Part shown: piece by piece, positions 1,517-36,799 of the stretch
Numbering within the stretch: the first letter of the stretch is position 1
Layout: each line of letters starts with the position of its first letter
NCBI GenBank assembly: GCA_030428205.1
Contig: JAUIBK010000001.1
Span: 199,966 to 263,965 of the forward strand
Direction: 5' to 3'
DNA from: a bacterium
GTDB taxonomy: Bacteria > Bdellovibrionota_C > UBA2361 > RFPC01
Length of the DNA: 64,000 bases
Translations under genes and position numbers: made by a program
The notes under the pieces: model-generated
Database searches by the model: none
Told to the model about the DNA's origin: nothing
The model's input: the letters and a program-made list of their open reading frames with translations, nothing else

Positions 1517-2557
1517 ATGACCGAAGAAGAAAATAAGATACAAGCCGCAGGTCAAACCGAAGAAGACGTTGCCACGGCACCGGCTTCTGTAAATGGTGAT
1601 GCCGCTGATAGTGATTCGTCGCACGCTTCTGCTGAAGTGGAGGCTGCAAGTGAACAAGCCTCATCGGATGCAGAAGAAGGCGATGCCGAAAAATCAACGG
1701 CTGGCACGATCGATCTTGCGGGTCTTGCTGAGAAAGCTGCTGAGAGCCAAAAGAAAGAAGATGTTGCGGTTGCGTTTGACCCGTTTACTGGAGAGGGTTC
1801 AAGAGACGCGGTTCGTGCTGATGAAGTTATTACTCGTTTCGATCCTAATGCGCTTGGAGAAGTCATTGAAGAGGATGAGCCTGAGCAAGTCGAAGCGAAG
1901 GAAGCGCCAGAGGCCACCGAAGAGGCAGCTGAGCAGGAAGATGAAACTGCAGCTGAAGAAGCGCAGCTTTCAGAAGAGCAAGAAGCTGCGGAAGAAGTTG
2001 AGCCCGAGCCTGAAAAAGAAGTTCACCCCGATGCTAAATGGTACGTTGTAAACGCCTACTCTGGATTTGAGTTAAAGGCGAAACGTTCACTCGAAGAGCG
2101 AATCCGTAATCACGAAATGGAAGAGCTCTTTGGTGAAGTGCGTGTTCCTGAAGAGACAGTTGTTGAGCTTGTTCGTGGTCAGAAGAAAACATCTACCCGC
2201 AAGTTCTTTCCGGGCTACATGCTTGTTCAGATGGTGATGAACCAGGACACTTGGCACCTTGTCAAAGAGACGCCAAAGATTACTGGCTTTATCGGAGACG
2301 AGTCTGACCCAGCACCACTTGGCCCTGATGAAGTTGCGCGTATCCTCCAGCAGGTAGAAGAGGGTGCTTCCTCGCCGAAGGCGAAGATGAGTTTTGAAGA
2401 AGGAGAGACGGTCAAAGTTATCGATGGTCCGTTCTCTGATTTTAACGGGACAGTAGAAGAGGTGAAGCCGGAGAAAGGCAAGCTCAAGGTGCTTATCAGC
2501 ATCTTTGGACGTGCAACTCCAGTGGAGCTCGATTTCATTCAAGTGGAGAAGTCTTAA
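1517..2557 (+). CDS. nusG: transcription termination/antitermination factor NusG with a ~170-aa acidic low-complexity N-terminal extension
   Basis: C-terminal 175 aa hold the NGN ([12 protein letters not shown]...) and KOW ([21 protein letters not shown]) motifs. N-terminal residues 1-170 are E/A/D-rich with no alternative in-frame start near the NGN domain. Confidence 0.9.
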
Positions 2558-15302: not shown

Positions 15303-18300
15303 TTGCTATACTCCCAGGGACGTGTCTTTCCTTGGGAGCTAGTGCCAGTGCCTTTCCGCCTTCTTTTCACAGTTTTCTTTTTTCTGATTTCACACTCGGT
15401 AGCTGCTGAGCAGGTCGACTTTATCTTCAATGGAGATCTGAGCATAAATTGCCATGACGGCACACTCGCTTCCGAGGGGCAATCGTGTGCGAAAAGTGTT
15501 GTTCTGAGTTCTGACTGGAGCATGAGGATCCTCCGAGAAACTCATGCAACCTCTGAGCTTATGCTCTCAGGGAGTGGAGGATCTATTAATACCACTATCC
15601 CTGGATGGACTCCTCGGGATAGTTTCTCTGTGCCTGGAGATCGAATCCGATTAGAGATCTTTCAAAATGCAGGTGCAAGTGGAGATAGTTGCTTTTATCT
15701 CGGAGATGTTTGGGCACACCTTAGAGATCCTCATGACCCTGAGACGAGTTTCTGTCGTTTTTTAGTCTACAAAGACGTTGGTGAAGTCTGCCTTCCTCCT
15801 GGCGGAGTAGCTTCGCAAATGATCTTTGTGCCGCATATTCCTGATGGATGTGATGGGAATCTCTCTGCTTCTGCCACTGTTGAGAACGAATCGATCGAGG
15901 TCGGAGAGGAGCTCAGTACGAGAATTTCTCTCCTCACGAGCACCACAGGTGTTATCACTCGGGGGTGTTGGCCAGGGGTGTTGCACTATAAAGATCTAGC
16001 CTTAGGAAAGGCAGATATTGGCACTCCTCTCGATGAGACTACCTATGGGTATCCAAGCTCTATTACACCAGGTGGCTGCACTCCTGACTACCCATATGTC
16101 ATGAATCCTCATAGTGAACGACATGTCGAGTACGTTGGCCCTGTAAACAAGCCTGGAGTTGTTTCACTTATTCCTGAGGTTCCTTTCTATTCCGTCTTTG
16201 AAACTCCAGATGCTACTGGGCATATGGTTTTTAGTGATCTGAACACAACCGTGGTCACTGTTACAGGAGGCTTAAGGATTCAGGCATTAGCACCAGAGTC
16301 TATACCCGCTGATGGTGAGGTATTTGACATTCAAGTCTCTATCACAAATCAAGGTCAGAAGTCCGCAACATTACCAGAAGCTAACTGCTACGACTATGTG
16401 TATCAAGTTGCCTGTTCTCAGCCTGATCAGGAGTGTTCAAAAACTCAAGTTATTCTGCCGCTTTCAAATCAACCTACAATGGCGGAGGTAACTCTTGCTG
16501 GTGGTCAATCACACTCTTTCACCTGCTCTTACCTAGCTATATCTGAGGGAAGTGTCGACTTCTCGTTTGCAACGACTTGGGAACATCAAAGTGGTAACCC
16601 CGTTTTTACTGATTATTCCTGTGACTCCCATCCTCAAGGAGGAGCACGGTGTTTTGAGCCCACTTTTCAAACTGATAACCGCACAGTTGTTCGAGTCGGT
16701 ATAGGGCCTGGTGGTGAGTGTGGTGATGGGATTATCGATGAGTCTGAGCAGTGTGATGGTGGAGACTGTTGTACGGAGGAATGTACCTACAGAAAATCAG
16801 GTGAACTTTGTCAGGGCGAGAGTATTTGTGCAGAGTCAAATGTTTGTGATGGGCTCTCTGGAGAATGCCGCGGGGCAGATGAAGATCCTAGTATTGAATC
16901 GGTAGAGTTCTCCTTGCTTACTCCTTTAGGTTCGAGCCCAGTGGTGCTGAGTACTGGTTGGGAGTTTGGTGTGAACGCGACAGCTCAGTGTTCAAATGGA
17001 CTCACGAGAGATCTTTCGAGTTATGTAGAGTGGTCAGGAACTGGGACGTTTTCACCTTCGCAGGGAGTTCGCTCTCGTCCTTCGTTTTCGTCACCGGGAA
17101 TCAATTCTATTCGATTTGAGTATGCAGGAGCTTCGCTTTTTGCAGATGAAGTGTCTGTTACGACAAAGTCAGCAAGTGGTTTTGCCGCTGTCGGTGACGA
17201 GGCTTTTTGTCCAGCAGATAGTCATGGAGCCCCCACTGATCCACATGCTGTACAAGGCCCTATTCTTCGAGGAAGCACCTTAGTTACCCTAGGTGGGGCA
17301 CCTGCTGCGCGTATCGGAGATCCAGGAGAGCATGCTGCTTGCTCTGGGCCGAACTCCTTTGTTGTAGCTGCTGGAGATCCTGAGGTCTCAGTTCTTGGAA
17401 GAGCGTTAGCCAGACATGGAGACGCCACAAGCCACTGTGGCGGGAATGGTTCTATCATTTCACCAAAGCTCTCTCTTCCATCAACGTTATCTCTCCGATC
17501 TTCAGGAAGTGGGCAGGTCTCTGGGCGTGTTACTGGTCCAAACGGCGCACCACTTTATGGTATCGCGGTGTCTCTTTTTGATGGAACTGGCAATATTTAT
17601 ACAGCGTGGTCTGATGAGTTAGGCGACTATGTTATAGATAGCCTTCCCGCCGGGAGTTTTACACTTGAATGTAACGGTGCAACGGTGGGTTTACCTGGTA
17701 TCATGCTTAGAGATGGCGTAGGTCTACCCCCTAAGACTTTGAGTCTTGGTGAGGGAGCATCTCTTGTGGGACAAAACTGCACGCTTCCAACCGGAGGTGT
17801 TCTTGCTGGGGTTGTTACCGATACTGCCTTATCTCCGGTAAGTGGCGTTTGGGTCCACGCACGCCCTACGGATCCCACATTTGTGGGCTCGTCTGTACTC
17901 ACTTCCGCTGACGGCTCTTACTCTCTTTCTGGTCTTCTCGAGGGTACCTATCGAGTCTTCGTCTCTGGTAGTGAAGAAGGATTTGAAGACACCTATTATC
18001 CCAACTCAAGAAAGTGGGAACAAGCTCGTATCCTCTCCGTTAAAAATGGCCAAACACAAAAAGGATTAGCTATTCGACTTTCGCTTTTGAATCCTTACGA
18101 ATCTTGTTCTTCTACTTCGCTCATACTCCAAGAGATTCGCTTAGCTCAACTGTTTCGTGAGCAACACAGCTTGGTAACTAAAGCGTCACGTGTGTATAAG
18201 AAAGCTGCGCGTGGTATTGGAGAAAAATTTAAAAAGCGAATAAAGAAAGCAAAGAAGAAAGCAAATATATTGCTTGAAGATTCAAGTGCTGCACTCCAAG

Positions 18301-18563
18301 AACTCCCTCCTGTATCATATTCGGATTGTGGAGGAATTTCACCAGAATGCGTTTCAACTTCTAACGCGAGTGTAAAAAGCTCACTCCTGCTCTTCTCTCA
18401 ACGTCTCTTTCGCGAGACAAAGAAGCTTGTTGCTCGGGAAAAGAAACTTCGAGGGAGTAATACAAAGAGGGCCAAGAAAACGAGAAAGAAAGCACGAAAA
18501 TTTAAAAAAGAGTTATTCTCGCTTGTAGAGGCACTCCCGGGTCAAACCGTGAGCTGTAGTTGA
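15303..18563 (+). CDS. large secreted multidomain protein: N-terminal beta-rich region, Myxococcus-type cysteine-rich repeat, Ig-like domain, PAAR motif domain, two carboxypeptidase-regulatory/transthyretin-like beta-sandwich domains, Lys-rich C-terminal tail
   Basis: PAAR motifs GSTLVTLGGAPAARIGDPGEH...EVSVLGRALARHGDATSHCGG at nt ~17190-17470. Cys-rich ECGDGIIDESEQCDGGDCCTEEC at ~16705-16880. GVVTD...SADGSYSLSGLLEGTYRV TTR-like repeats. C-terminal KKAKKKA...KRAKKTRKKARKFKK. The likely true start is the GTG at 15342 or 15348, giving the signal peptide MPFRLLFTVFFFLISHSVAA with GGGAG 9 nt upstream. Confidence 0.75.
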   Translation: MLYSQGRVFPWELVPVPFRLLFTVFFFLISHSVAAEQVDFIFNGDLSINCHDGTLASEGQSCAKSVVLSSDWSMRILRETHATSELMLSGSGGSINTTIPGWTPRDSFSVPGDRIRLEIFQNAGASGDSCFYLGDVWAHLRDPHDPETSFCRFLVYKDVGEVCLPPGGVASQMIFVPHIPDGCDGNLSASATVENESIEVGEELSTRISLLTSTTGVITRGCWPGVLHYKDLALGKADIGTPLDETTYGYPSSITPGGCTPDYPYVMNPHSERHVEYVGPVNKPGVVSLIPEVPFYSVFETPDATGHMVFSDLNTTVVTVTGGLRIQALAPESIPADGEVFDIQVSITNQGQKSATLPEANCYDYVYQVACSQPDQECSKTQVILPLSNQPTMAEVTLAGGQSHSFTCSYLAISEGSVDFSFATTWEHQSGNPVFTDYSCDSHPQGGARCFEPTFQTDNRTVVRVGIGPGGECGDGIIDESEQCDGGDCCTEECTYRKSGELCQGESICAESNVCDGLSGECRGADEDPSIESVEFSLLTPLGSSPVVLSTGWEFGVNATAQCSNGLTRDLSSYVEWSGTGTFSPSQGVRSRPSFSSPGINSIRFEYAGASLFADEVSVTTKSASGFAAVGDEAFCPADSHGAPTDPHAVQGPILRGSTLVTLGGAPAARIGDPGEHAACSGPNSFVVAAGDPEVSVLGRALARHGDATSHCGGNGSIISPKLSLPSTLSLRSSGSGQVSGRVTGPNGAPLYGIAVSLFDGTGNIYTAWSDELGDYVIDSLPAGSFTLECNGATVGLPGIMLRDGVGLPPKTLSLGEGASLVGQNCTLPTGGVLAGVVTDTALSPVSGVWVHARPTDPTFVGSSVLTSADGSYSLSGLLEGTYRVFVSGSEEGFEDTYYPNSRKWEQARILSVKNGQTQKGLAIRLSLLNPYESCSSTSLILQEIRLAQLFREQHSLVTKASRVYKKAARGIGEKFKKRIKKAKKKANILLEDSSAALQELPPVSYSDCGGISPECVSTSNASVKSSLLLFSQRLFRETKKLVAREKKLRGSNTKRAKKTRKKARKFKKELFSLVEALPGQTVSCS

Positions 18564-18864
18564 GATTCATTCTACTGTTCCTCGGTGAAGAGGGAGGGGG
18601 GAGTGGAACCAACCATTTGTAAGCTAGATTGCTGAAAACACTAGAAGTTTTGTTCTTTTGCCCATCTCGAGGGCGGTAGTGCTTTCTTCGAGTTGAAACC
18701 CCCTTGCCGTACTATGGAATATTTCTTCCTAACGGTATGTAAAAGTGTTGACTTTTGCTACTATCCAGCGACCGAAAGCTCCTCATTCTCATGGAAGTAG
18801 AGCTCAGCGTTAAATATCTTCGTTTTTTTAATTACGTAATACAAAACAACAATAGAGGTGTGTC

Positions 18865-20947
18865 TTGTCAGATATAACAGGGGACCTGCAAAGGTACAGA
18901 AACATCGGAATTTTTGCTCACGTTGATGCCGGAAAAACAACAACGACCGAGCGTATCCTTAACCTTACCGGAAAGATTCATAAGCTTGGTGAGGTACACG
19001 ACGGAGAAGCTACAACAGACTTTATGGATCAAGAGCGTGAGCGGGGGATTACCATCCAGTCTGCTGCTACTAGTTGTTCTTGGAACGATCACCGTCTCAA
19101 CATTATTGATACTCCCGGGCACGTGGACTTTACCATTGAGGTATACCGTAGTCTGAAAGTGCTTGATGGTGGTATTGGCGTTTTCTGTGGATCTGGTGGT
19201 GTTGAGCCACAATCGGAAACAAACTGGCGCTATGCAAACGACTCAAAAGTAGCCCGCCTTATTTTTGTAAATAAACTTGACCGAGTTGGGGCTGACTTCT
19301 TCCGAGTAGTGAATCAAGTCAAAGATGTCCTCGGTGCGAAGCCTCTTATTATGACGCTTCCTATCGGAGCAGAGAGTGAGTTTAGAGGTGTCGTGGATCT
19401 CATCACACGTAAAGCTTGGGTGTGGGACGAGTCAGGCGATCCTATGAAGTTTGAGATCCAAGATCCACCAGCAGACATGGCGGATCAGGTTGAGAAGTAC
19501 CGCGAAGAGATGATCGAAACAGCTCTTGAGCAAGATGAAGAAGCTATGGAAGCATACCTCGAAGGTACTGAGCCTAGCGAGGAGGTCATCAAGAATTGTA
19601 TTCGTAAGGGAACAATTGCTCTCGACTTTTTCCCAGCATTTTGTGGCTCAGCATTTAAGAACAAAGGGGTGCAACCTCTTCTTGATGCTGTTGTTGATTA
19701 CCTTCCGAACCCAACGGAAGTCCCACCACAACCTGAAATTGATCTTGAAGGACACCCAACAGGGGAGTTCGCTGTTGCGTGCTCTTGCCTTTAAGATCAT
19801 GGAAGACAGGTACGGAGCACTCACGTTCCTCCGCATTTACTCTGGAAAGCTTGAGAAAGGTACTACGGTTGTAAATACCTACACAGGCCGAAAAGAGCGA
19901 ATCGGTCGGATTGTTGAGATGCACGCGGATTCTCGAGAAGAGCTTAGCTCTGCAAAAGCAGGAGACATCGTTGCTGTACTCGGAATGAAAGAAGTTCAAA
20001 CTGGGCACACGCTTGCTGACCCTGATAACCCAGCAACGCTTGAGCCAATGGTTTTCCCTGATCCAGTTATCTCCATCGCGATTGATACGAAGGAGAAAGG
20101 AGACCGGGATAAGCTTGGAGTTGCACTCTCAAAGATGACTTCGGAAGATCCATCGTTTCGTGTTGAGACAGATGAGGAGACGGGAGAAACTATCCTCAAA
20201 GGGATGGGAGAGCTTCACCTTGATATTAAGATCGACATCATCAAACGCACCTACGGTATTGAGTGTGTCGCTGGTGCTCCTCAGGTTGCTTACCGTGAAA
20301 CAATCACGAAGCGAACAGAAGATAGCTACACACACAAGAAGCAAACGGGTGGATCTGGCCAGTTTGGTAAGATTGACTTCGTTATCGAGCCAAATGAGCC
20401 TGGTGAAGGATTTGAGTTTGTTTCTGAGATTAAAGGTGGAAACGTACCAAAAGAATTTTGGCCTGCTATTGAGAAAGGTTTCAAGCTTAGCCTTGAAGAA
20501 GGCGTGCTTGCAGGCTTTCAATGTATCGATGTGAAGATCACATTGGTCGATGGTGGATACCACGCGGTTGACTCCTCTGCCGTTGCTTTTGAGCTCTGTG
20601 CGAAAGGTGCTTACCGTCAGGTCATGCCAAAGGCTGGGCCTCAGATTCTTGAGCCGATCATGAAGGTCGACTGTTACGTTCCTGAAGATTACGTTGGTGA
20701 TACCATTGGAGACCTTAACCGTCGTCGCGGTATGATTAACTCTCAGGAAGTTGGTGCTACGGGTGCTCGCATCCAAGCGAACGTTCCTCTTTCAGAGATG
20801 TTTGGTTACATCGGTGATCTTCGAACAATGACTTCTGGTCGTGGTCAGTTCTCTATGGAATTCTTGAACTATCAGCCGTGCCCAACCACGGTGACTGAAG
20901 CGGTCATTAAAGAAGCTCAGGAGCGAAAAGAGGCTCGGAATAAATAA
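18865..20947 (+). pseudogene. elongation factor G paralog (EF-G2-like), reading frame broken by a +1 frameshift near 19780-19790
   Basis: Frame 1 (18865-19794, TTG start) encodes the complete G domain ([20 protein letters not shown]...[12 protein letters not shown]...NKLDR) and ends ...[11 protein letters not shown]. Frame 2 resumes ...[25 protein letters not shown] and encodes domains II-V through 20947. Skipping one G restores [12 protein letters not shown], which aligns to [10 protein letters not shown] of the bona fide fusA. Confidence 0.8.
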
Positions 20948-21284
20948 TTCTTAGCTTTTTAGCGAAAAAGCTTCTTAAGGGCGTGTGATACTTTGGTGGT
21001 ATCATGCGCCTTTTGCATATTTGGTACCTCAACTATACCAGGCGCACTTCAAAACGCCCGGCATCTTGTGATGCATTATCCATCCTGGAGAGCATTTTGA
21101 AGTACGCCTGGTACGGCTGTATCTTCCCTCTCCGACTACGCTCTTCGAGCTTCGTCGTGACCTGAGCTCCTAAGGACCACGTCGTAGCCTTTGGCGAAGA
21201 CGGGCGGGGGATACTCCCCGCCGACGGTGCTTATTGAACCGGAAATTTCAAGTGCGGGGAGTATAACTTTTCGCATTAATCTTA

Positions 21285-21345
21285 GTATTAGCCTCCGCCT
21301 TAGCCTATATCTTGGTTTTGGTCTTATTATTGGTATCAGCCTACC
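21285..21345. repeat. solo half-copy (right arm) of palindromic element family 1
   Basis: gcctatatcttggttttggtcttattattggtatcagcct is about 85% identical to the right arm of the elements at 36757-36799 and 42843-42884. Confidence 0.6.
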
Positions 21346-21796
21346 TCTTCAAAAATGAAAACCACGGAGTTTCCGTAGTTCGCGGAGGACTTCACGGAGA
21401 AGTTTATAAATCCCCCTCCGTGAAACTCTCCGTGTTCGCCGTGCCCTCCGTGGTTTATCCATGAATAATGCGGGTTAAACCGAGACTTGGCCCATGGCCT
21501 CGCTTGGAGAAGAGCCTCCTCTGTCTCCTGTTAAATCGGGTCCCATAAGAGCAAATGGTTAGCTGTGGGCAACTTTTATAACCCATTGATAACTTTAGGC
21601 ATATCATGCGCAAGCCCTCCTGCTTGCCCCCTGCTTCAAATACTGTCAAGAATTTCTTTCCCTGAGTTTGACTCTACCCAAATAGACGTGCTATCACATG
21701 CATTCTCGACTGGCGGGAAACTGCTGGTTGGTGCCCCCTGCGCTTGGTGTAAGCCAGTGAAATAAGGGGTTCCTTCCGCGGTCTTCTGTATTTTTT

Positions 21797-21823
21797 GGAG
21801 CTCGCTGAGCTCGTTTTTTTTGT
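21797..21823 (+). terminator. terminator-like hairpin plus T-run inside the ORF-free region upstream of rpsL
   Basis: ggagctc-gct-gagctc followed by gtttttttttg. Confidence 0.45.
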
Positions 21824-22273
21824 TTTTCTATGTGACCCGTTGCAAGTTCACATAGATAGGCCACCAATCAGGTGGAAACAAGAAACGAAACGGTTTAGCG
21901 GGGTATGAGTTGCCCATTAAAAGCGCTCCTGCCACAGAAACGGCAAGATGCAAGGCCTCTAACCTGGGGACGCAACATCTTGGCGGTTTTCCATCGAGGA
22001 CTTCCATAAGTGTTTTGGCACTCGCTTTTCATTGAAAGATGGTAAGTCGAGGGCAAGCAGGATCAAAACCAGGGATTGTGAACATTTACATAGTGTTTCC
22101 GGACTAATCTCTTTTTATAGAGCGTGCTGTTTTCCGGTAATAGTTTTTTAACGATAGCGTTTCACGCTGATTCGTGAAGTTCGCTTGCACTCTTTTTTTT
22201 TGCAAGTAAATGAATCGACTCGGTGGGAAACATTTACTCGAAATGAACTGTAATCATTGAGGGATGAGGCGGG

Positions 22274-22645
22274 ATGCCAACAATTAACCAGCTTGTTCGC
22301 AAGCGACGACTCAAAAAGAACTCACGTACGAAGTGCCCCGCACTTCGAGGATGTCCTCAAAAGCGAGGTGTTTGTACTCGTGTGTACACATCAACCCCAA
22401 AGAAGCCGAACTCAGCACTGAGAAAAGTTGCTCGTGTTCGACTCACCACTGGAATGGAAGTAACAAGCTACATTCCAGGTGTTGGTCACAATCTTCAAGA
22501 GCACTCCGTTGTTCTTATTCGTGGTGGCCGGGTGAAAGACCTTCCGGGTGTTCGTTACCACATCATCCGTGGAAAGCTTGAGGCTCACGGTGTGGAAGGA
22601 CGTAAGCAGGGTCGTTCGAAGTACGGCACAAAACGTCCGAAGTAG
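22274..22645 (+). CDS. rpsL: 30S ribosomal protein S12
   Basis: [12 protein letters not shown]...[17 protein letters not shown]... canonical S12. Confidence 0.97.
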
Positions 22646-22690
22646 TCATAATCGAGTAGAAGAATTCTAGCGGAACTGGAGATTTAAATT

Positions 22691-23161
22691 ATGTCGCGCA
22701 AGAGTAAGGATTACGTTCGAGCTATCCTCCCTGATCCAAAGTTTGGCGATATGCTCGTAGCCAAAACGGTGAATACCCTCATGATGCACGGAAAGAAGAG
22801 CACCGCTGAGCGCGCTCTTTATTCTGCGCTTGATACCGTTGGCGAGCGTTCGAAAAAAGATCCTATTGAAGTTTTTCACAAAGCCATTGAAAACATCCGA
22901 CCGGTTGTAGAAGTACGTTCTCGCCGTGTTGGTGGTGCTACGTACCAGGTTCCTACTGAAGTCAGTGGGCGTCGGGCGCAAGCACTTGCTCTTCGTTGGC
23001 TTAAGACCGCAACAAAGTCACGTAGCGAACGCACGCTTGCAGAGCGTTTAGCTGGTGAGCTTATGGATGCGTTTGAAAACCGCGGAAACGCAGTTAAGAA
23101 ACGCGAAGATACACATAAAATGGCAGAAGCAAACAAGGCGTTCTCTCACTTCCGTTGGTAG
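22691..23161 (+). CDS. rpsG: 30S ribosomal protein S7
   Basis: [20 protein letters not shown]...canonical S7. Confidence 0.96.
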
Positions 23162-23197
23162 GAAGAGGGTAGGCTTAGTTTTTTGTAGAGTAACGAA

Positions 23198-25297
23198 GTG
23201 GCTAACCAAGATCTCACAAAAGTGCGAAATATCGGCATCATGGCACACATTGATGCTGGTAAGACGACCACTACCGAGAGGATCCTCTTTTACACGGGGA
23301 TCAACTACAAGATCGGTGAGGTGCATGATGGTGCGGCCACTATGGACTACATGGAACTTGAGCAAGAGCGTGGAATTACGATCACCTCTGCTGCGACTTC
23401 GTGTAAGTGGAGTGGTGGGGAAGGCCAGCTTCCTGAGCACGATATCAATATTATCGATACTCCAGGTCACGTTGATTTCACTATTGAGGTGGAGCGTAGC
23501 TTACGTGTTCTCGATGGGGCTGTAGCTGTTTTTGATGCGGTCAACGGTGTTGAGCCTCAATCTGAAACTGTTTGGCGACAAGCCACAAAGTTTGGTGTTC
23601 CACGCTTTTGTTTCATCAATAAGATGGATAAGACTGGAGCAAACTTTGAGTATGCCGTTAGCACTATCCGTGATCGTCTTGGAGCAAATGCTGTACCACT
23701 TCAGGTCATGATCGGCGCCGAAGGCGATCTTAAAGGTGTTATTGATCTCGTAGAAATGAAAGCCATTGTTTATCACGATGAGACAATGGGAGCGAAGTAC
23801 GATATCGAAGAAATTCCAGCTGAGTACGCTGATAAAGCTGCAAGTGCTAGGGATTATATGCTTGAGTCAATCGCTGAGTGCGATGAGGCTTTCATGGAGA
23901 AATATCTCGGTGGGGAAGAGCTCTCTGCTGATGAGATTCGAGCAACTATTCGTAAAGGTGTTCTCACCCGTGCTATTTTTCCTGTGTTAGGTGGAAGTGC
24001 TTTTAAGAACAAGGGGGTTCAGCCTCTTCTTGATGCAGTTGTTCACTACCTCCCATCACCACTTGAAGTCCCCCCAGTAAGTGGCTTTGCTCCAGACGAT
24101 ACAGAAGAGCAAACACCAATAACACTCGAAGCAAAGTCTGATGAGCCGTTCTCTGCGCTTGCTTTTAAGATCATTACGGACCCATACGTTGGTGTCCTTA
24201 CGTTCTTTCGAGTGTACTCAGGAACACTTGATGCTGGTTCAACAATTTTCAATGCTACCCGTGGTAAAAAAGAGCGTATCGGTCGTATCGTACGTATGCA
24301 TGCTGATAAGCGTGAAGAGGTCAAAACAATTAGCGCTGGAGATATTGGTGCGGCTGTTGGCCTTAAAGAAACGTACACTGGTGATACCATTTGCTCTATG
24401 GAGAAGCCGGTACTTCTTGAAAGTATTTATGCCCCAGAGCCTGTAATCGGTGTGGCGATTGAGCCGAAGTCGAAAGCGGATGAAGAGAAGATGGGCTTGG
24501 CTCTTATGAAGCTCTCAAAAGAAGACCCGTCACTACGCGTGCGCACAGATGAAGAGAGTGGCCAAACAATTATCGCTGGAATGGGTGAGCTTCACCTTGA
24601 TGTGATCAAGAGCCGCCTTGAGAGAGAATTTAGTGTCAACACAACCGTTGGTAAGCCTCAGGTTGCATATCGTGAGACCATTACGGCTCCAATGACTGAG
24701 CACGAGGTCAAATACGCCAAGCAAACAGGTGGTCGTGGTCAATTTGGACATGTCCATATCCGCTTTGAGCCACTAGAGGCCGGCGCGGGCTTTGAGTTTG
24801 TTGACGAGATTAAGGGTGGTGTGATTCCCAAAGAGTACATTCCTGCTGTGAAAAATGGTGTCGAAGAAGCTCTCAAAGGTGGGATCCTCGCTGGATACCC
24901 TGTCATTGATGTCAAGGCGACTCTCTACTACGGGAGTTTCCACGAAGTTGACTCAAGTGAAATGGCTTTTAAGATTGCTGGTTCGATGTGTACAAAAGAA
25001 GGCTGCCGTAAGGCTGGCATAAAACTTCTCGAGCCAGTGATGAAGGTTGAAGTAGTAAGTCCTGAAGAGTTCACAAGCAATGTAGTTGGTGATCTCAACA
25101 GAAGACGCGCTCGAATTCTTGGCATGGAGGCTCGTGCTGGTGCTCAGGTAGTAAAAGCTGAAGTACCTCTTGCTGAAATGTTTGGGTATGCAACAGATCT
25201 TCGTTCAAATTCTCAGGGACGTGCAAATTTTACGATGGAATATGACCACTATGGTGAGGTTCCGTCGCACGTATCTGAAAGTATTGCGGCGAAGTAG
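23198..25297 (+). CDS. fusA: elongation factor G (GTG start)
   Basis: 699 aa with G1-G5 motifs, domain IV loop HEVDSS. Position between rpsG and tuf. Confidence 0.96.
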
Positions 25298-36522: not shown

Positions 36523-36642
36523 TTCACGGTACTAAGCTGAAAAATTTTCTATAACGCGAAAGGGCGCGAAGAACACGGAGGAAATTGGCCTTTGTGGTCT
36601 TGGCGCCCTTTTGCGTTGTATGGCATTTTTTTAGGCGGAGGC

Positions 36643-36799
36643 TGATACCAAGAATAAGGCCAAAGCGAAGATATAGGCAAAGGCTGAGGCTGATATAAAG
36701 ACTACGAGCTAGGGGAATCTATTTCCTTAGCCCCAGCCCTTGTCTCAGTCTTGGTCTATATCTTCGCTTTGGCCTTATTCTTGGTATCAGCCTCCGCCT
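36643..36799. repeat. 157-bp palindromic intergenic element (family 1), perfect ~43-bp terminal inverted arms, inserted between rplO and secY
   Basis: Left arm aggcggaggctgataccaagaataaggccaaagcgaagatatag and right arm ctatatcttcgctttggccttattcttggtatcagcctccgcct are exact reverse complements. A homologous element lies at 42719-42884. Confidence 0.85.

What the first reader, a model, noticed from the sequence alone, without database searches (positions are those of the whole stretch)
18865..20947. EF-G paralog split by a single-nucleotide frameshift immediately upstream of the str operon
A complete second EF-G (G domain through domain V) is encoded in two frames. Frame 1 stops at 19794. Frame 2 carries the continuation from about 19785. 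Skipping the single G in gttgcGtgct restores a continuous EF-G (…[19 protein letters not shown]…). This may be an inactivating mutation of a dispensable EF-G2/spare EF-G, a sequencing error, or less likely a programmed shift. Its placement directly before rpsL-rpsG-fusA is itself uncommon.
Basis: seen in the sequence. Interest (0 to 1): 0.55.

Follow-up and report, generated by a model that had tools for sequence, protein, structure and literature searches.

The report
Second EF-G gene missing 20 bases
A spare copy of the protein-synthesis factor EF-G in an uncultured Bdellovibrio-like bacterium is broken by a 20-base gap that other samples of the same strain do not seem to carry, so it is probably an assembly flaw or a very young mutation and is otherwise ordinary.

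Summary
The split is real in the given sequence. Frame 1 runs 18865-19794 (G domain). Frame 2 continues to 20947 (domains II-V). It is not a one-base insertion. Against 3 of 3 family orthologs and a 96%-identical contig from another run, the window lacks 20 bases between 19773 and 19774, bordered by GTTG repeats. These bases encode 7 residues found in 17 of 17 related proteins.

The gene is not a copy of the neighbouring fusA (52% identity). It belongs to a separate, laterally spread second EF-G clade shared with Vibrionaceae, other marine Gammaproteobacteria and Verrucomicrobiota.

No independent contig carries the junction. In three runs with 100%-identical flanks, contigs stop there, and the right-hand ones run on 1-4 letters unlike the window. 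Both halves look selected: 28 of 29 differences from the intact relative are synonymous, and all catalytic motifs are kept.

Best reading: an assembly error or minority allele (about 0.55), or else a very young inactivating deletion (about 0.38). A programmed frameshift is not supported. Low interest.

The parts
18854..18860 (+). Shine-Dalgarno-like AGAGGTG, 4 bases before the TTG start of the paralog
   Evidence: Read directly from the sequence. Not tested further.
18865..19794 (+). First piece of the second EF-G gene (G domain with G' insert), frame 1, ending at TAA 19792-19794. The last 7 codons (19774-19794) are out-of-frame readings of domain II sequence.
   Evidence: ORF list. TIGR00484 profile positions 5-293, 427.5 bits. 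Pfam GTP_EFTU 212.5 bits. G1-G5 motifs present.
19773..19777 (+). Deletion junction. 20 bases present in all compared orthologs are missing here. The cut can be placed anywhere from 19773/19774 to 19777/19778 because GTTG borders both sides in the intact allele.
   Evidence: 20-base gap against 3 of 3 orthologous loci. A 20-letter insert lies behind 19773 in the X4 contig. No contig of X1, X2 or X3 covers 19771-19773.
19778..20947 (+). Second piece of the second EF-G gene (domains II, III, IV, V), frame 2. This frame is open from 19526.
   Evidence: ORF list. TIGR00484 profile positions 310-689, 520.9 bits. Pfam D2, EFG_III, EFG_IV and EFG_C. Domain IV loop motifs present.
20948..22273 (.). 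Non-coding spacer between the paralog and rpsL, filled with species-specific dispersed repeats (about 21034-21461)
   Evidence: 47 further matches elsewhere in G000 and none in 6 family relatives. No Rfam family reaches threshold.
22274..22645 (+). rpsL (S12), first gene of the str operon
   Evidence: ORF and translation. Name from the reading of the sequence, not scanned against a family library.
22691..23161 (+). rpsG (S7)
   Evidence: ORF and translation. Name from the reading of the sequence, not scanned against a family library.
23198..25297 (+). Canonical fusA (EF-G) of the str operon, intact, 699 aa, 52% identical to the paralog
   Evidence: TIGR00484 1095.4 bits against a cut-off of 659.4. 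Identity. Groups with the canonical fusA of the same order (99 SH-aLRT).

Best explanation
The gene is a real second elongation factor G of the EFG I-like 'type 2' clade. This clade is spread laterally among marine Gammaproteobacteria, Verrucomicrobiota and some Bdellovibrionota. The encoded protein keeps every GTPase and domain IV motif, so by inference it works as a ribosome-dependent GTPase beside the canonical fusA. In this assembly it lacks 20 bases at the boundary of the G domain and domain II, which shifts the frame. I think this junction does not represent the organism. It is most likely an assembly or consensus error, such as a join or a single aberrant read bridging a local gap in coverage at GTTG microhomology. 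At most it is a minority allele. The strain's real gene would then be intact. Shown: the 20-base gap, its absence from all orthologs, the lack of any independent contig with the junction, and the absence of decay. Inferred: how the false junction arose, and that the protein is functional.
For: (1) Runs X1 and X2 (near-identical contig sets, probably one data set filed twice) and X3 match the window with 0 other letters in the flanks, yet no contig covers 19771-19773. The left contig ends at 19770. These runs hold 0.96, 0.96 and 0.33 of the sampled words, and no run holds all of them. (2) The intact allele exists in a 96%-identical relative (X4, 20 letters behind 19773, frame unbroken) and in 3 of 3 family orthologs that span the site. 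(3) No decay is visible. 28 of the 29 listed differences from the X4 allele are synonymous third-position changes, 13 before and 16 after the break, and the one replacement is Ile to Leu. G1-G5 and both domain IV loop motifs are kept. The end branch is 0.079, against 0.12-0.13 for three other family rows. (4) The exact 309-residue truncated product occurs once among about 15 billion proteins, on the window's own contig, while the 14 members of the nearest cluster are 699-743 residues long.
Against: De Bruijn-graph assemblers rarely invent a 20-base deletion, and the genome looks like a plain short-read assembly: 81 contigs, N50 76,995, no N runs, and a partial 16S at a contig end. The other large genes of the window are intact. 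GTTG microhomology fits a real slippage deletion as well as a false join. I saw only Logan contigs, never raw reads, and the tool warns that a hole in contigs proves nothing. The 1-4 unlaid letters could not be read. Contigs that stop at this exact site could also mean that both alleles coexist in the sample, which would make the deletion real but not fixed. It is not known whether X1/X2 is the sample behind the assembly.
Confidence: 0.55

Rival explanations
1. The deletion is real. A very young replication-slippage deletion between the two GTTG repeats removed 20 bases and inactivated a dispensable, laterally acquired second EF-G. The cell lives on the canonical fusA 2.2 kb downstream. The allele is fixed or common in the sampled population but not in the species.
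For: The sequence as deposited carries it. GTTG lies at both borders in the intact allele. The canonical fusA is intact. The paralog is patchy in the phylum: full-length in 8 of 124 genomes searched, and not found in G001 or G003 of the same family, which are 84% and 86% complete. This fits dispensability. Another family ortholog (G005) carries an in-frame TAG 24 codons before its end. Short-read assemblers seldom fabricate such junctions.
Against: No independent contig shows the junction in three runs with identical flanks, and the right-hand contigs run on with letters unlike the window. There is no second lesion and no relaxed selection in either half. The truncated product is known only from the window's own record. 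The G005 stop lies on a contig whose title gives about 3.5-fold coverage, so it may be an error.
Confidence: 0.38
2. The split is functional. Either a programmed +1 shift (for instance at CTT TAA G, 19789-19795, which resembles the prfB site) makes a full-length factor, or the two pieces are made separately and work together.
For: CTT followed by a stop codon ends frame 1. In frame 2 a TTG at 19775 lies 7 bases after GGGGAG (19762-19767), which could serve as a restart site (read). The region between domains I and II is described as rich in indels in the EFG II subfamily (passages of PMC3150367).
Against: The split is not conserved. 0 of 3 family orthologs spanning the site, 0 of 14 members of the nearest cluster and 0 of 17 aligned clade members show it. 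The conserved ALAFK motif is encoded in frame 2 before the CTT TAA site, so a shift there would replace it with unrelated residues. Any product would lack the Pro-Leu found in all 17 aligned relatives.
Confidence: 0.03
3. The gene is a recent tandem duplicate of the adjacent str-operon fusA that is decaying.
For: It lies 2.2 kb upstream of fusA on the same strand.
Against: It is only 52% identical to that fusA. In the tree it falls inside a separate clade (100 SH-aLRT, stem 0.89) with proteins of other phyla, while the neighbouring fusA groups with the canonical genes of its own order (99). 5 of 5 tested genomes of other phyla hold both types.
Confidence: 0.01

Closest known systems
Second EF-G of Vibrionaceae and other marine Gammaproteobacteria: the EFG I-type gene outside the str operon that Margus et al. 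2011 (PMC3150367) attribute to lateral transfer. Palmer et al. 2013 (PMC3832671) list the Vibrio cholerae pair of 698 and 695 residues at 53% identity.
   Same: Same clade in my tree (100 SH-aLRT). 68-78% identity to genes of Vibrio, Photobacterium, Grimontia, Ferrimonas, Kangiellaceae, Pleionea and Methylococcaceae. Length about 695-700 residues. RGITI and all G motifs are kept. It coexists with a canonical fusA that is about 50% identical.
   Different: The host is a Bdellovibrio-like bacterium. The gene lies 1.3 kb upstream of rpsL rather than far from the str operon. It is broken by a 20-base gap in this assembly. V. cholerae itself was not among my sequences, so its membership of the clade is inferred from other Vibrio species.
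Pseudomonas aeruginosa EF-G1A and EF-G1B (Palmer et al. 2013, PMC3832671; abstract and passages read)
   Same: Two EFG I-type factors in one genome, one of them in the str operon. That paper reports a division of labour between translocation and a probable recycling role, which is a possible model for what the second factor does here.
   Different: The Pseudomonas pair is 84% identical and counted as a recent duplication. The pair here is 52% identical and of different origin. No function was tested here.
Divergent EF-G paralogs: EFG II (for example Thermus EF-G2, PDB 1wdt) and spdEFG1/2
   Same: They are additional EF-G genes beside fusA.
   Different: The paralog scores 367.8 bits against 1wdt but 770-810 bits against canonical EF-G structures. 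It keeps the RGITI motif, which EFG II lacks according to PMC3150367. The genome's third EF-G-like gene (G000:C16:25565-27619, 34% identity) is the likelier member of those groups; I did not test this.
Programmed +1 frameshift of prfB (CUU UGA C; site and spacing recalled, no call)
   Same: Frame 1 ends in CTT TAA G, and the continuation lies in the +1 frame.
   Different: The shift is not conserved in any ortholog. The Shine-Dalgarno-like element is at the wrong distance. The conserved residues upstream of the site are already in the +1 frame, so the frame change happened at the deletion and not at the stop.

Membership tests
Elongation factor G (NCBIfam TIGR00484; Pfam five-domain architecture) | All five domains: GTP_EFTU with G', D2, EFG_III, EFG_IV, EFG_C | tested here: met
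   Pfam finds GTP_EFTU in piece 1, and D2/EF-G_D2, EFG_III, EFG_IV and EFG_C in piece 2, all above their cut-offs.
Elongation factor G (NCBIfam TIGR00484; Pfam five-domain architecture) | One protein scoring above the curated cut-off (659.4 bits) | tested here: not met
   The pieces score 427.5 and 520.9 bits, each below the cut-off. Only their simple sum (about 948) would pass. The canonical fusA scores 1095.4. The read-through P0001 was not scanned against NCBIfam.
Elongation factor G (NCBIfam TIGR00484; Pfam five-domain architecture) | GTPase motifs G1-G5 and the two domain IV tip loops | tested here: met
   [37 protein letters not shown] and HAVDSS were found by pattern in P0001. The motif definitions are recalled.
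Type-2 (Vibrio-type) second EF-G clade, EFG I-like | Groups with the second EF-G of Gammaproteobacteria and Verrucomicrobiota, apart from the canonical fusA of any of these phyla | tested here: met
   A clade of 33 rows with 100 SH-aLRT and stem 0.89; quick IQ-TREE with LG+G4, 57 rows. 71-81% identity to those proteins against 50-54% to canonical fusA.
Type-2 (Vibrio-type) second EF-G clade, EFG I-like | Coexists with a canonical str-operon fusA | tested here: met
   True in G000 and in 5 of 5 tested genomes of other phyla.
Type-2 (Vibrio-type) second EF-G clade, EFG I-like | Segment of 7 residues plus Pro-Leu before RALAFK | tested here: not met
   Present in 17 of 17 other aligned clade members and absent from the window's read-through.
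Programmed +1 ribosomal frameshift (prfB type) | The two-frame arrangement is conserved in orthologs | tested here: not met
   0 of 3 family orthologs spanning the site. 0 of 14 members of the nearest cluster, all 699-743 residues. The X4 contig is in one frame.
Programmed +1 ribosomal frameshift (prfB type) | Slippery CUU before an in-frame stop, with a Shine-Dalgarno-like element about 3 bases upstream | tested here: inconclusive
   CTT TAA G is present at 19789-19795, but the only GGGGAG lies 21 bases upstream. The required spacing is recalled, not taken from a call.
Decaying pseudogene | Further lesions or relaxed selection after the break | tested here: not met
   28 of the 29 listed differences from the intact X4 allele are synonymous, 16 of them downstream of the break. 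There are no other stops. The end branch is short.

The most novel reading that the evidence does not exclude
The 20-base deletion is real, and the gene still gives a working factor. This could happen by +1 slippage at CTT TAA G. It could also happen as a naturally split EF-G: a free G domain plus a domains II-V protein restarted at the in-frame TTG at 19775, which the deletion has placed 7 bases after a GGGGAG Shine-Dalgarno-like element. A split translocase that works in two pieces has no natural precedent known to me (recalled; no search was made for this).
Probability: 0.03. Interest if true: 0.55.

Novelty: new member of a known kind. Interest (0 to 1): 0.12.

Why it matters
It matters little for biology. 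The finding is a broken, or wrongly assembled, copy of a known kind of second EF-G. It is a useful caution in two ways. A frameshift that one skipped base seems to 'repair' can in truth be a longer deletion. And a private frameshift in a metagenome-assembled genome needs read support before it is called a pseudogene. A minor point of interest: the Vibrio-type second EF-G is spread patchily across three phyla, including Bdellovibrio-like bacteria. I found no paper on its function among the 30 listed of 186 papers holding the terms.

Tried and rejected
- **RNA evidence:** no RNA holder was listed for the stretch, so nothing can be said about expression.
- **Scans for either allele:** two scans of JGI metagenome contigs found nothing, one for either allele and one for the right flank. 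A search of the window's own genome for the 20 missing letters, with up to 3 mismatches, also found nothing.
- **Short proteins across the break:** a search for proteins under 381 residues spanning the break found nothing above 79% identity, so no partial product of the same strain is on record there.
- **Rfam:** nothing reached threshold in 18000-23500 (best E 0.22).
- **Promoter and terminator scan of 18400-22400:** no more sites than in shuffled sequence (3 against 4.3, and 3 against 3.8).
- **Synteny:** no rpsL, rpsG, rpoC or PAAR gene lies next to the paralog in the loci of G004, G005, G006 or G002.
- **PTPS and GTP cyclohydrolase I neighbours:** the pair seen in G004 and G005 was found in 0 of 79 loci of other phyla.
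- **Rejected:** a recent duplicate of the adjacent fusA, and a long-read assembly error.
- **Not run:** a genome-wide count of split genes, structure prediction and complex prediction.

Full report
**Observation.** The window holds an EF-G-like gene in two frames. Frame 1 runs from a TTG at 18865 to TAA at 19792-19794 (309 codons). Frame 2 is open from 19526 and runs to 20947. NCBIfam TIGR00484 (EF-G) matches the first piece over profile positions 5-293 (427.5 bits) and the second over 310-689 (520.9 bits). Each is below the 659.4-bit cut-off, whereas the canonical fusA at 23198-25297 scores 1095.4. Pfam places GTP_EFTU in piece 1, and D2, EFG_III, EFG_IV and EFG_C in piece 2. One four-letter step at 19778 gives 693 residues with no stop (P0001).

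**The lesion is a 20-base deletion, not an extra G.** A search of 30 relatives found orthologs of this paralog only in the window's own family:
- G004: 87% identity, open frame of 712 codons.
- G005: 85% identity.
- G006: 89% identity, residues 1-414 and then the contig end.
- G002: 94% identity, residues 3-123 and then the contig end.

In blastn the window shows a 20-base gap against all 3 loci that span the site. A 1,084-base contig of run X4, about 96% identical to the window (36 other letters), has 20 letters put in behind 19773 and reads through in one frame. These letters begin with GTTG, and GTTG follows them in the window, so the deletion lies between 4-base direct repeats. In a protein alignment, 17 of 17 other members of the clade carry 7 residues ending in Pro, followed by Leu, before the conserved RALAFK. 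The window's read-through lacks the 7 residues and has Val in place of the Leu. The Pfam EF-G_D2 match starts right at the break. Skipping one base therefore restores the frame but not the protein.

**What the gene is.**
- It is only 52% identical to the fusA 2.2 kb downstream.
- The large protein collection holds five clusters at 85-87% identity and then very many at 77-81%. Where these are named, the names are elongation factor G of Gammaproteobacteria, Pseudomonadota or Oligoflexia MAGs (8,000 candidates scored, 120 listed).
- In species-representative genomes, 80 loci were kept out of 578 confirmed. One is a Bdellovibrionota MAG. The rest, at 68-78% identity, are Vibrio, Photobacterium, Grimontia, Aliivibrio, Enterovibrio, Ferrimonas, Kangiellaceae, Pleionea, Methylococcaceae, Thiotrichaceae and Oceanospirillaceae, together with Verrucomicrobiota of the Opitutales, Puniceicoccaceae and Pelagisphaera kind.
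- 5 of 5 such genomes that I tested hold both this type and a canonical fusA.
- In a tree of 57 rows (quick IQ-TREE, LG+G4, rooted on two distant EF-G-like genes), this type forms one clade (100 SH-aLRT, stem 0.89). The neighbouring fusA groups with the canonical genes of its own order (99).
- This is the EFG I-type gene outside the str operon that Margus et al. 2011 ascribe to lateral transfer in Gammaproteobacteria (PMC3150367, abstract and passages). Table 1 of Palmer et al. 2013 lists such pairs, for example Vibrio cholerae at 698 and 695 residues with 53% identity (PMC3832671, passages).
- Within the window's phylum the type is patchy. Full-length matches occur in 8 of 124 genomes searched. 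At that threshold G000 (split), G002 and G006 (partial) are missed.
- All G1-G5 motifs, including RGITI, and both domain IV loops are kept. The protein scores 770-810 bits against canonical EF-G structures and 367.8 against Thermus EF-G2.
- By inference it is a working ribosome-dependent GTPase. Its particular role is unknown. Among the 30 listed of 186 papers holding the terms, none concerned this clade (titles and starts of abstracts seen only).

**Position.** The neighbourhood differs between relatives. In G004 and G005 the gene is followed by PTPS and GTP cyclohydrolase I genes, and no rpsL, rpsG, rpoC or PAAR gene is near. In G002 and G006 the contig ends inside the gene. The place before rpsL is thus particular to this genome among the loci I could see. 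The 1,326 bases between the paralog and rpsL are a nest of dispersed repeats. They have 47 further matches in G000, including the palindromic element noted earlier at about 36624-36793, and none in 6 family relatives.

**Is the junction real?**
- Ten runs were listed, six of which hold at least part of the stretch. None of them is on record as RNA.
- Only contigs could be laid, and only once.
They match the window with no other letters over 19300-19770 and 19774-20300, at word depth about 8.8-9.0.
- The left contig (9,722 bases) ends exactly at 19770.
- The depth at 19773 is 0 in all three runs.
- Letters that agreed with the window would have been laid. These contigs therefore run on unlike the window, as the intact allele would. 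The far ends of the X1 contigs fall in rpoC and at the repeat nest, which are ordinary branch points, so a break at exactly this site is unlikely to be chance.
- The exact truncated 309-residue product is on record once, on the window's own contig. The 14 members of the nearest cluster are 699-743 residues long.

**Evidence on the other side.** The genome looks like a plain short-read assembly: 81 contigs, N50 76,995, no N runs, and a partial 16S at the end of C40. Such assemblers seldom make up a junction. The tool itself warns that a hole in contigs proves nothing. A break at this site could also arise from two coexisting alleles.

**No sign of decay.** Of the 29 differences from the X4 allele listed (of 36 in that contig), 28 are synonymous third-position changes in the local frame and one is Ile to Leu. 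13 lie before the break and 16 after it. The gene's end branch (0.079) is shorter than those of three other family rows (0.12-0.13). Whatever happened is very recent on the scale of 4% divergence, or did not happen in the organism at all.

**Verdict.**
- About 0.55: the junction is an assembly or consensus error, or a minority allele. A possible cause is one aberrant read or a short-overlap join bridging a local coverage gap at the GTTG microhomology. This mechanism is inferred.
- About 0.38: a real, very young slippage deletion that inactivates a dispensable second EF-G. The patchy distribution of the gene and an in-frame TAG 24 codons before the end of the G005 ortholog fit dispensability. 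That stop lies on a contig of about 3.5-fold coverage by its title.
- About 0.03: a programmed shift or a functional split. The split is not conserved. The conserved ALAFK is already in frame 2 upstream of the CTT TAA site. The GGGGAG element lies 21 bases before that site.
- Rejected: a recent duplicate of the adjacent fusA.

Raw-read mapping or PCR across 19700-19850 would settle the first two.

**Novelty and interest.** The gene is a new member of a known kind, with a private and unsupported lesion. Interest is low (0.12).

Noticed in passing
window 20948-22273 (repeats about 21034-21461): The 1.3 kb between the paralog and rpsL has no long ORF and consists largely of short dispersed repeats. 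They have 47 further matches across G000 (up to 97% identical), including the palindromic element at about 36624-36793 of this window. There are none in 6 family relatives.
   Followed up: partly
L030 (G005:C202), about 2131-2133, minus strand: The G005 ortholog of the paralog has an in-frame TAG where relatives have Tyr, 24 codons before the normal end, and Gly for Arg in the SGRGQF motif. The contig's title gives about 3.5-fold coverage, so these may be errors.
   Followed up: partly
G000:C16:25565-27619 (outside the window; locus L004): A third, intact EF-G-like gene of 720 codons, 33-34% identical to the paralog. It is probably of the divergent EFG II or spd kind. It was used only as an outgroup.
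   Followed up: no
L028 4469-6240 and L030 728-1836: In genus g4 (G004, G005) the paralog is followed by PTPS (PF01242), GTP cyclohydrolase I (PF01227) and, in G004, a short-chain dehydrogenase gene. None of the three was found in any of 79 loci of other phyla.
   Followed up: yes
proteins P0210, P0154, P0152, P0160, P0219: Short pieces (163-377 residues) of the same EF-G type lie on very long public contigs (0.47-2.8 Mb). They are therefore probably not cut by a contig end and may be split or frameshifted copies in other assemblies.
   Followed up: no
phylum-wide and loci L033-L111: The Vibrio-type second EF-G is patchy in Bdellovibrionota (8 of 124 genomes, in 4 or more families) and is also present in Verrucomicrobiota. 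In the tree the window's family nests among unnamed and Oligoflexia proteins inside a clade made up mostly of Gammaproteobacteria. The direction of transfer was not tested.
   Followed up: partly
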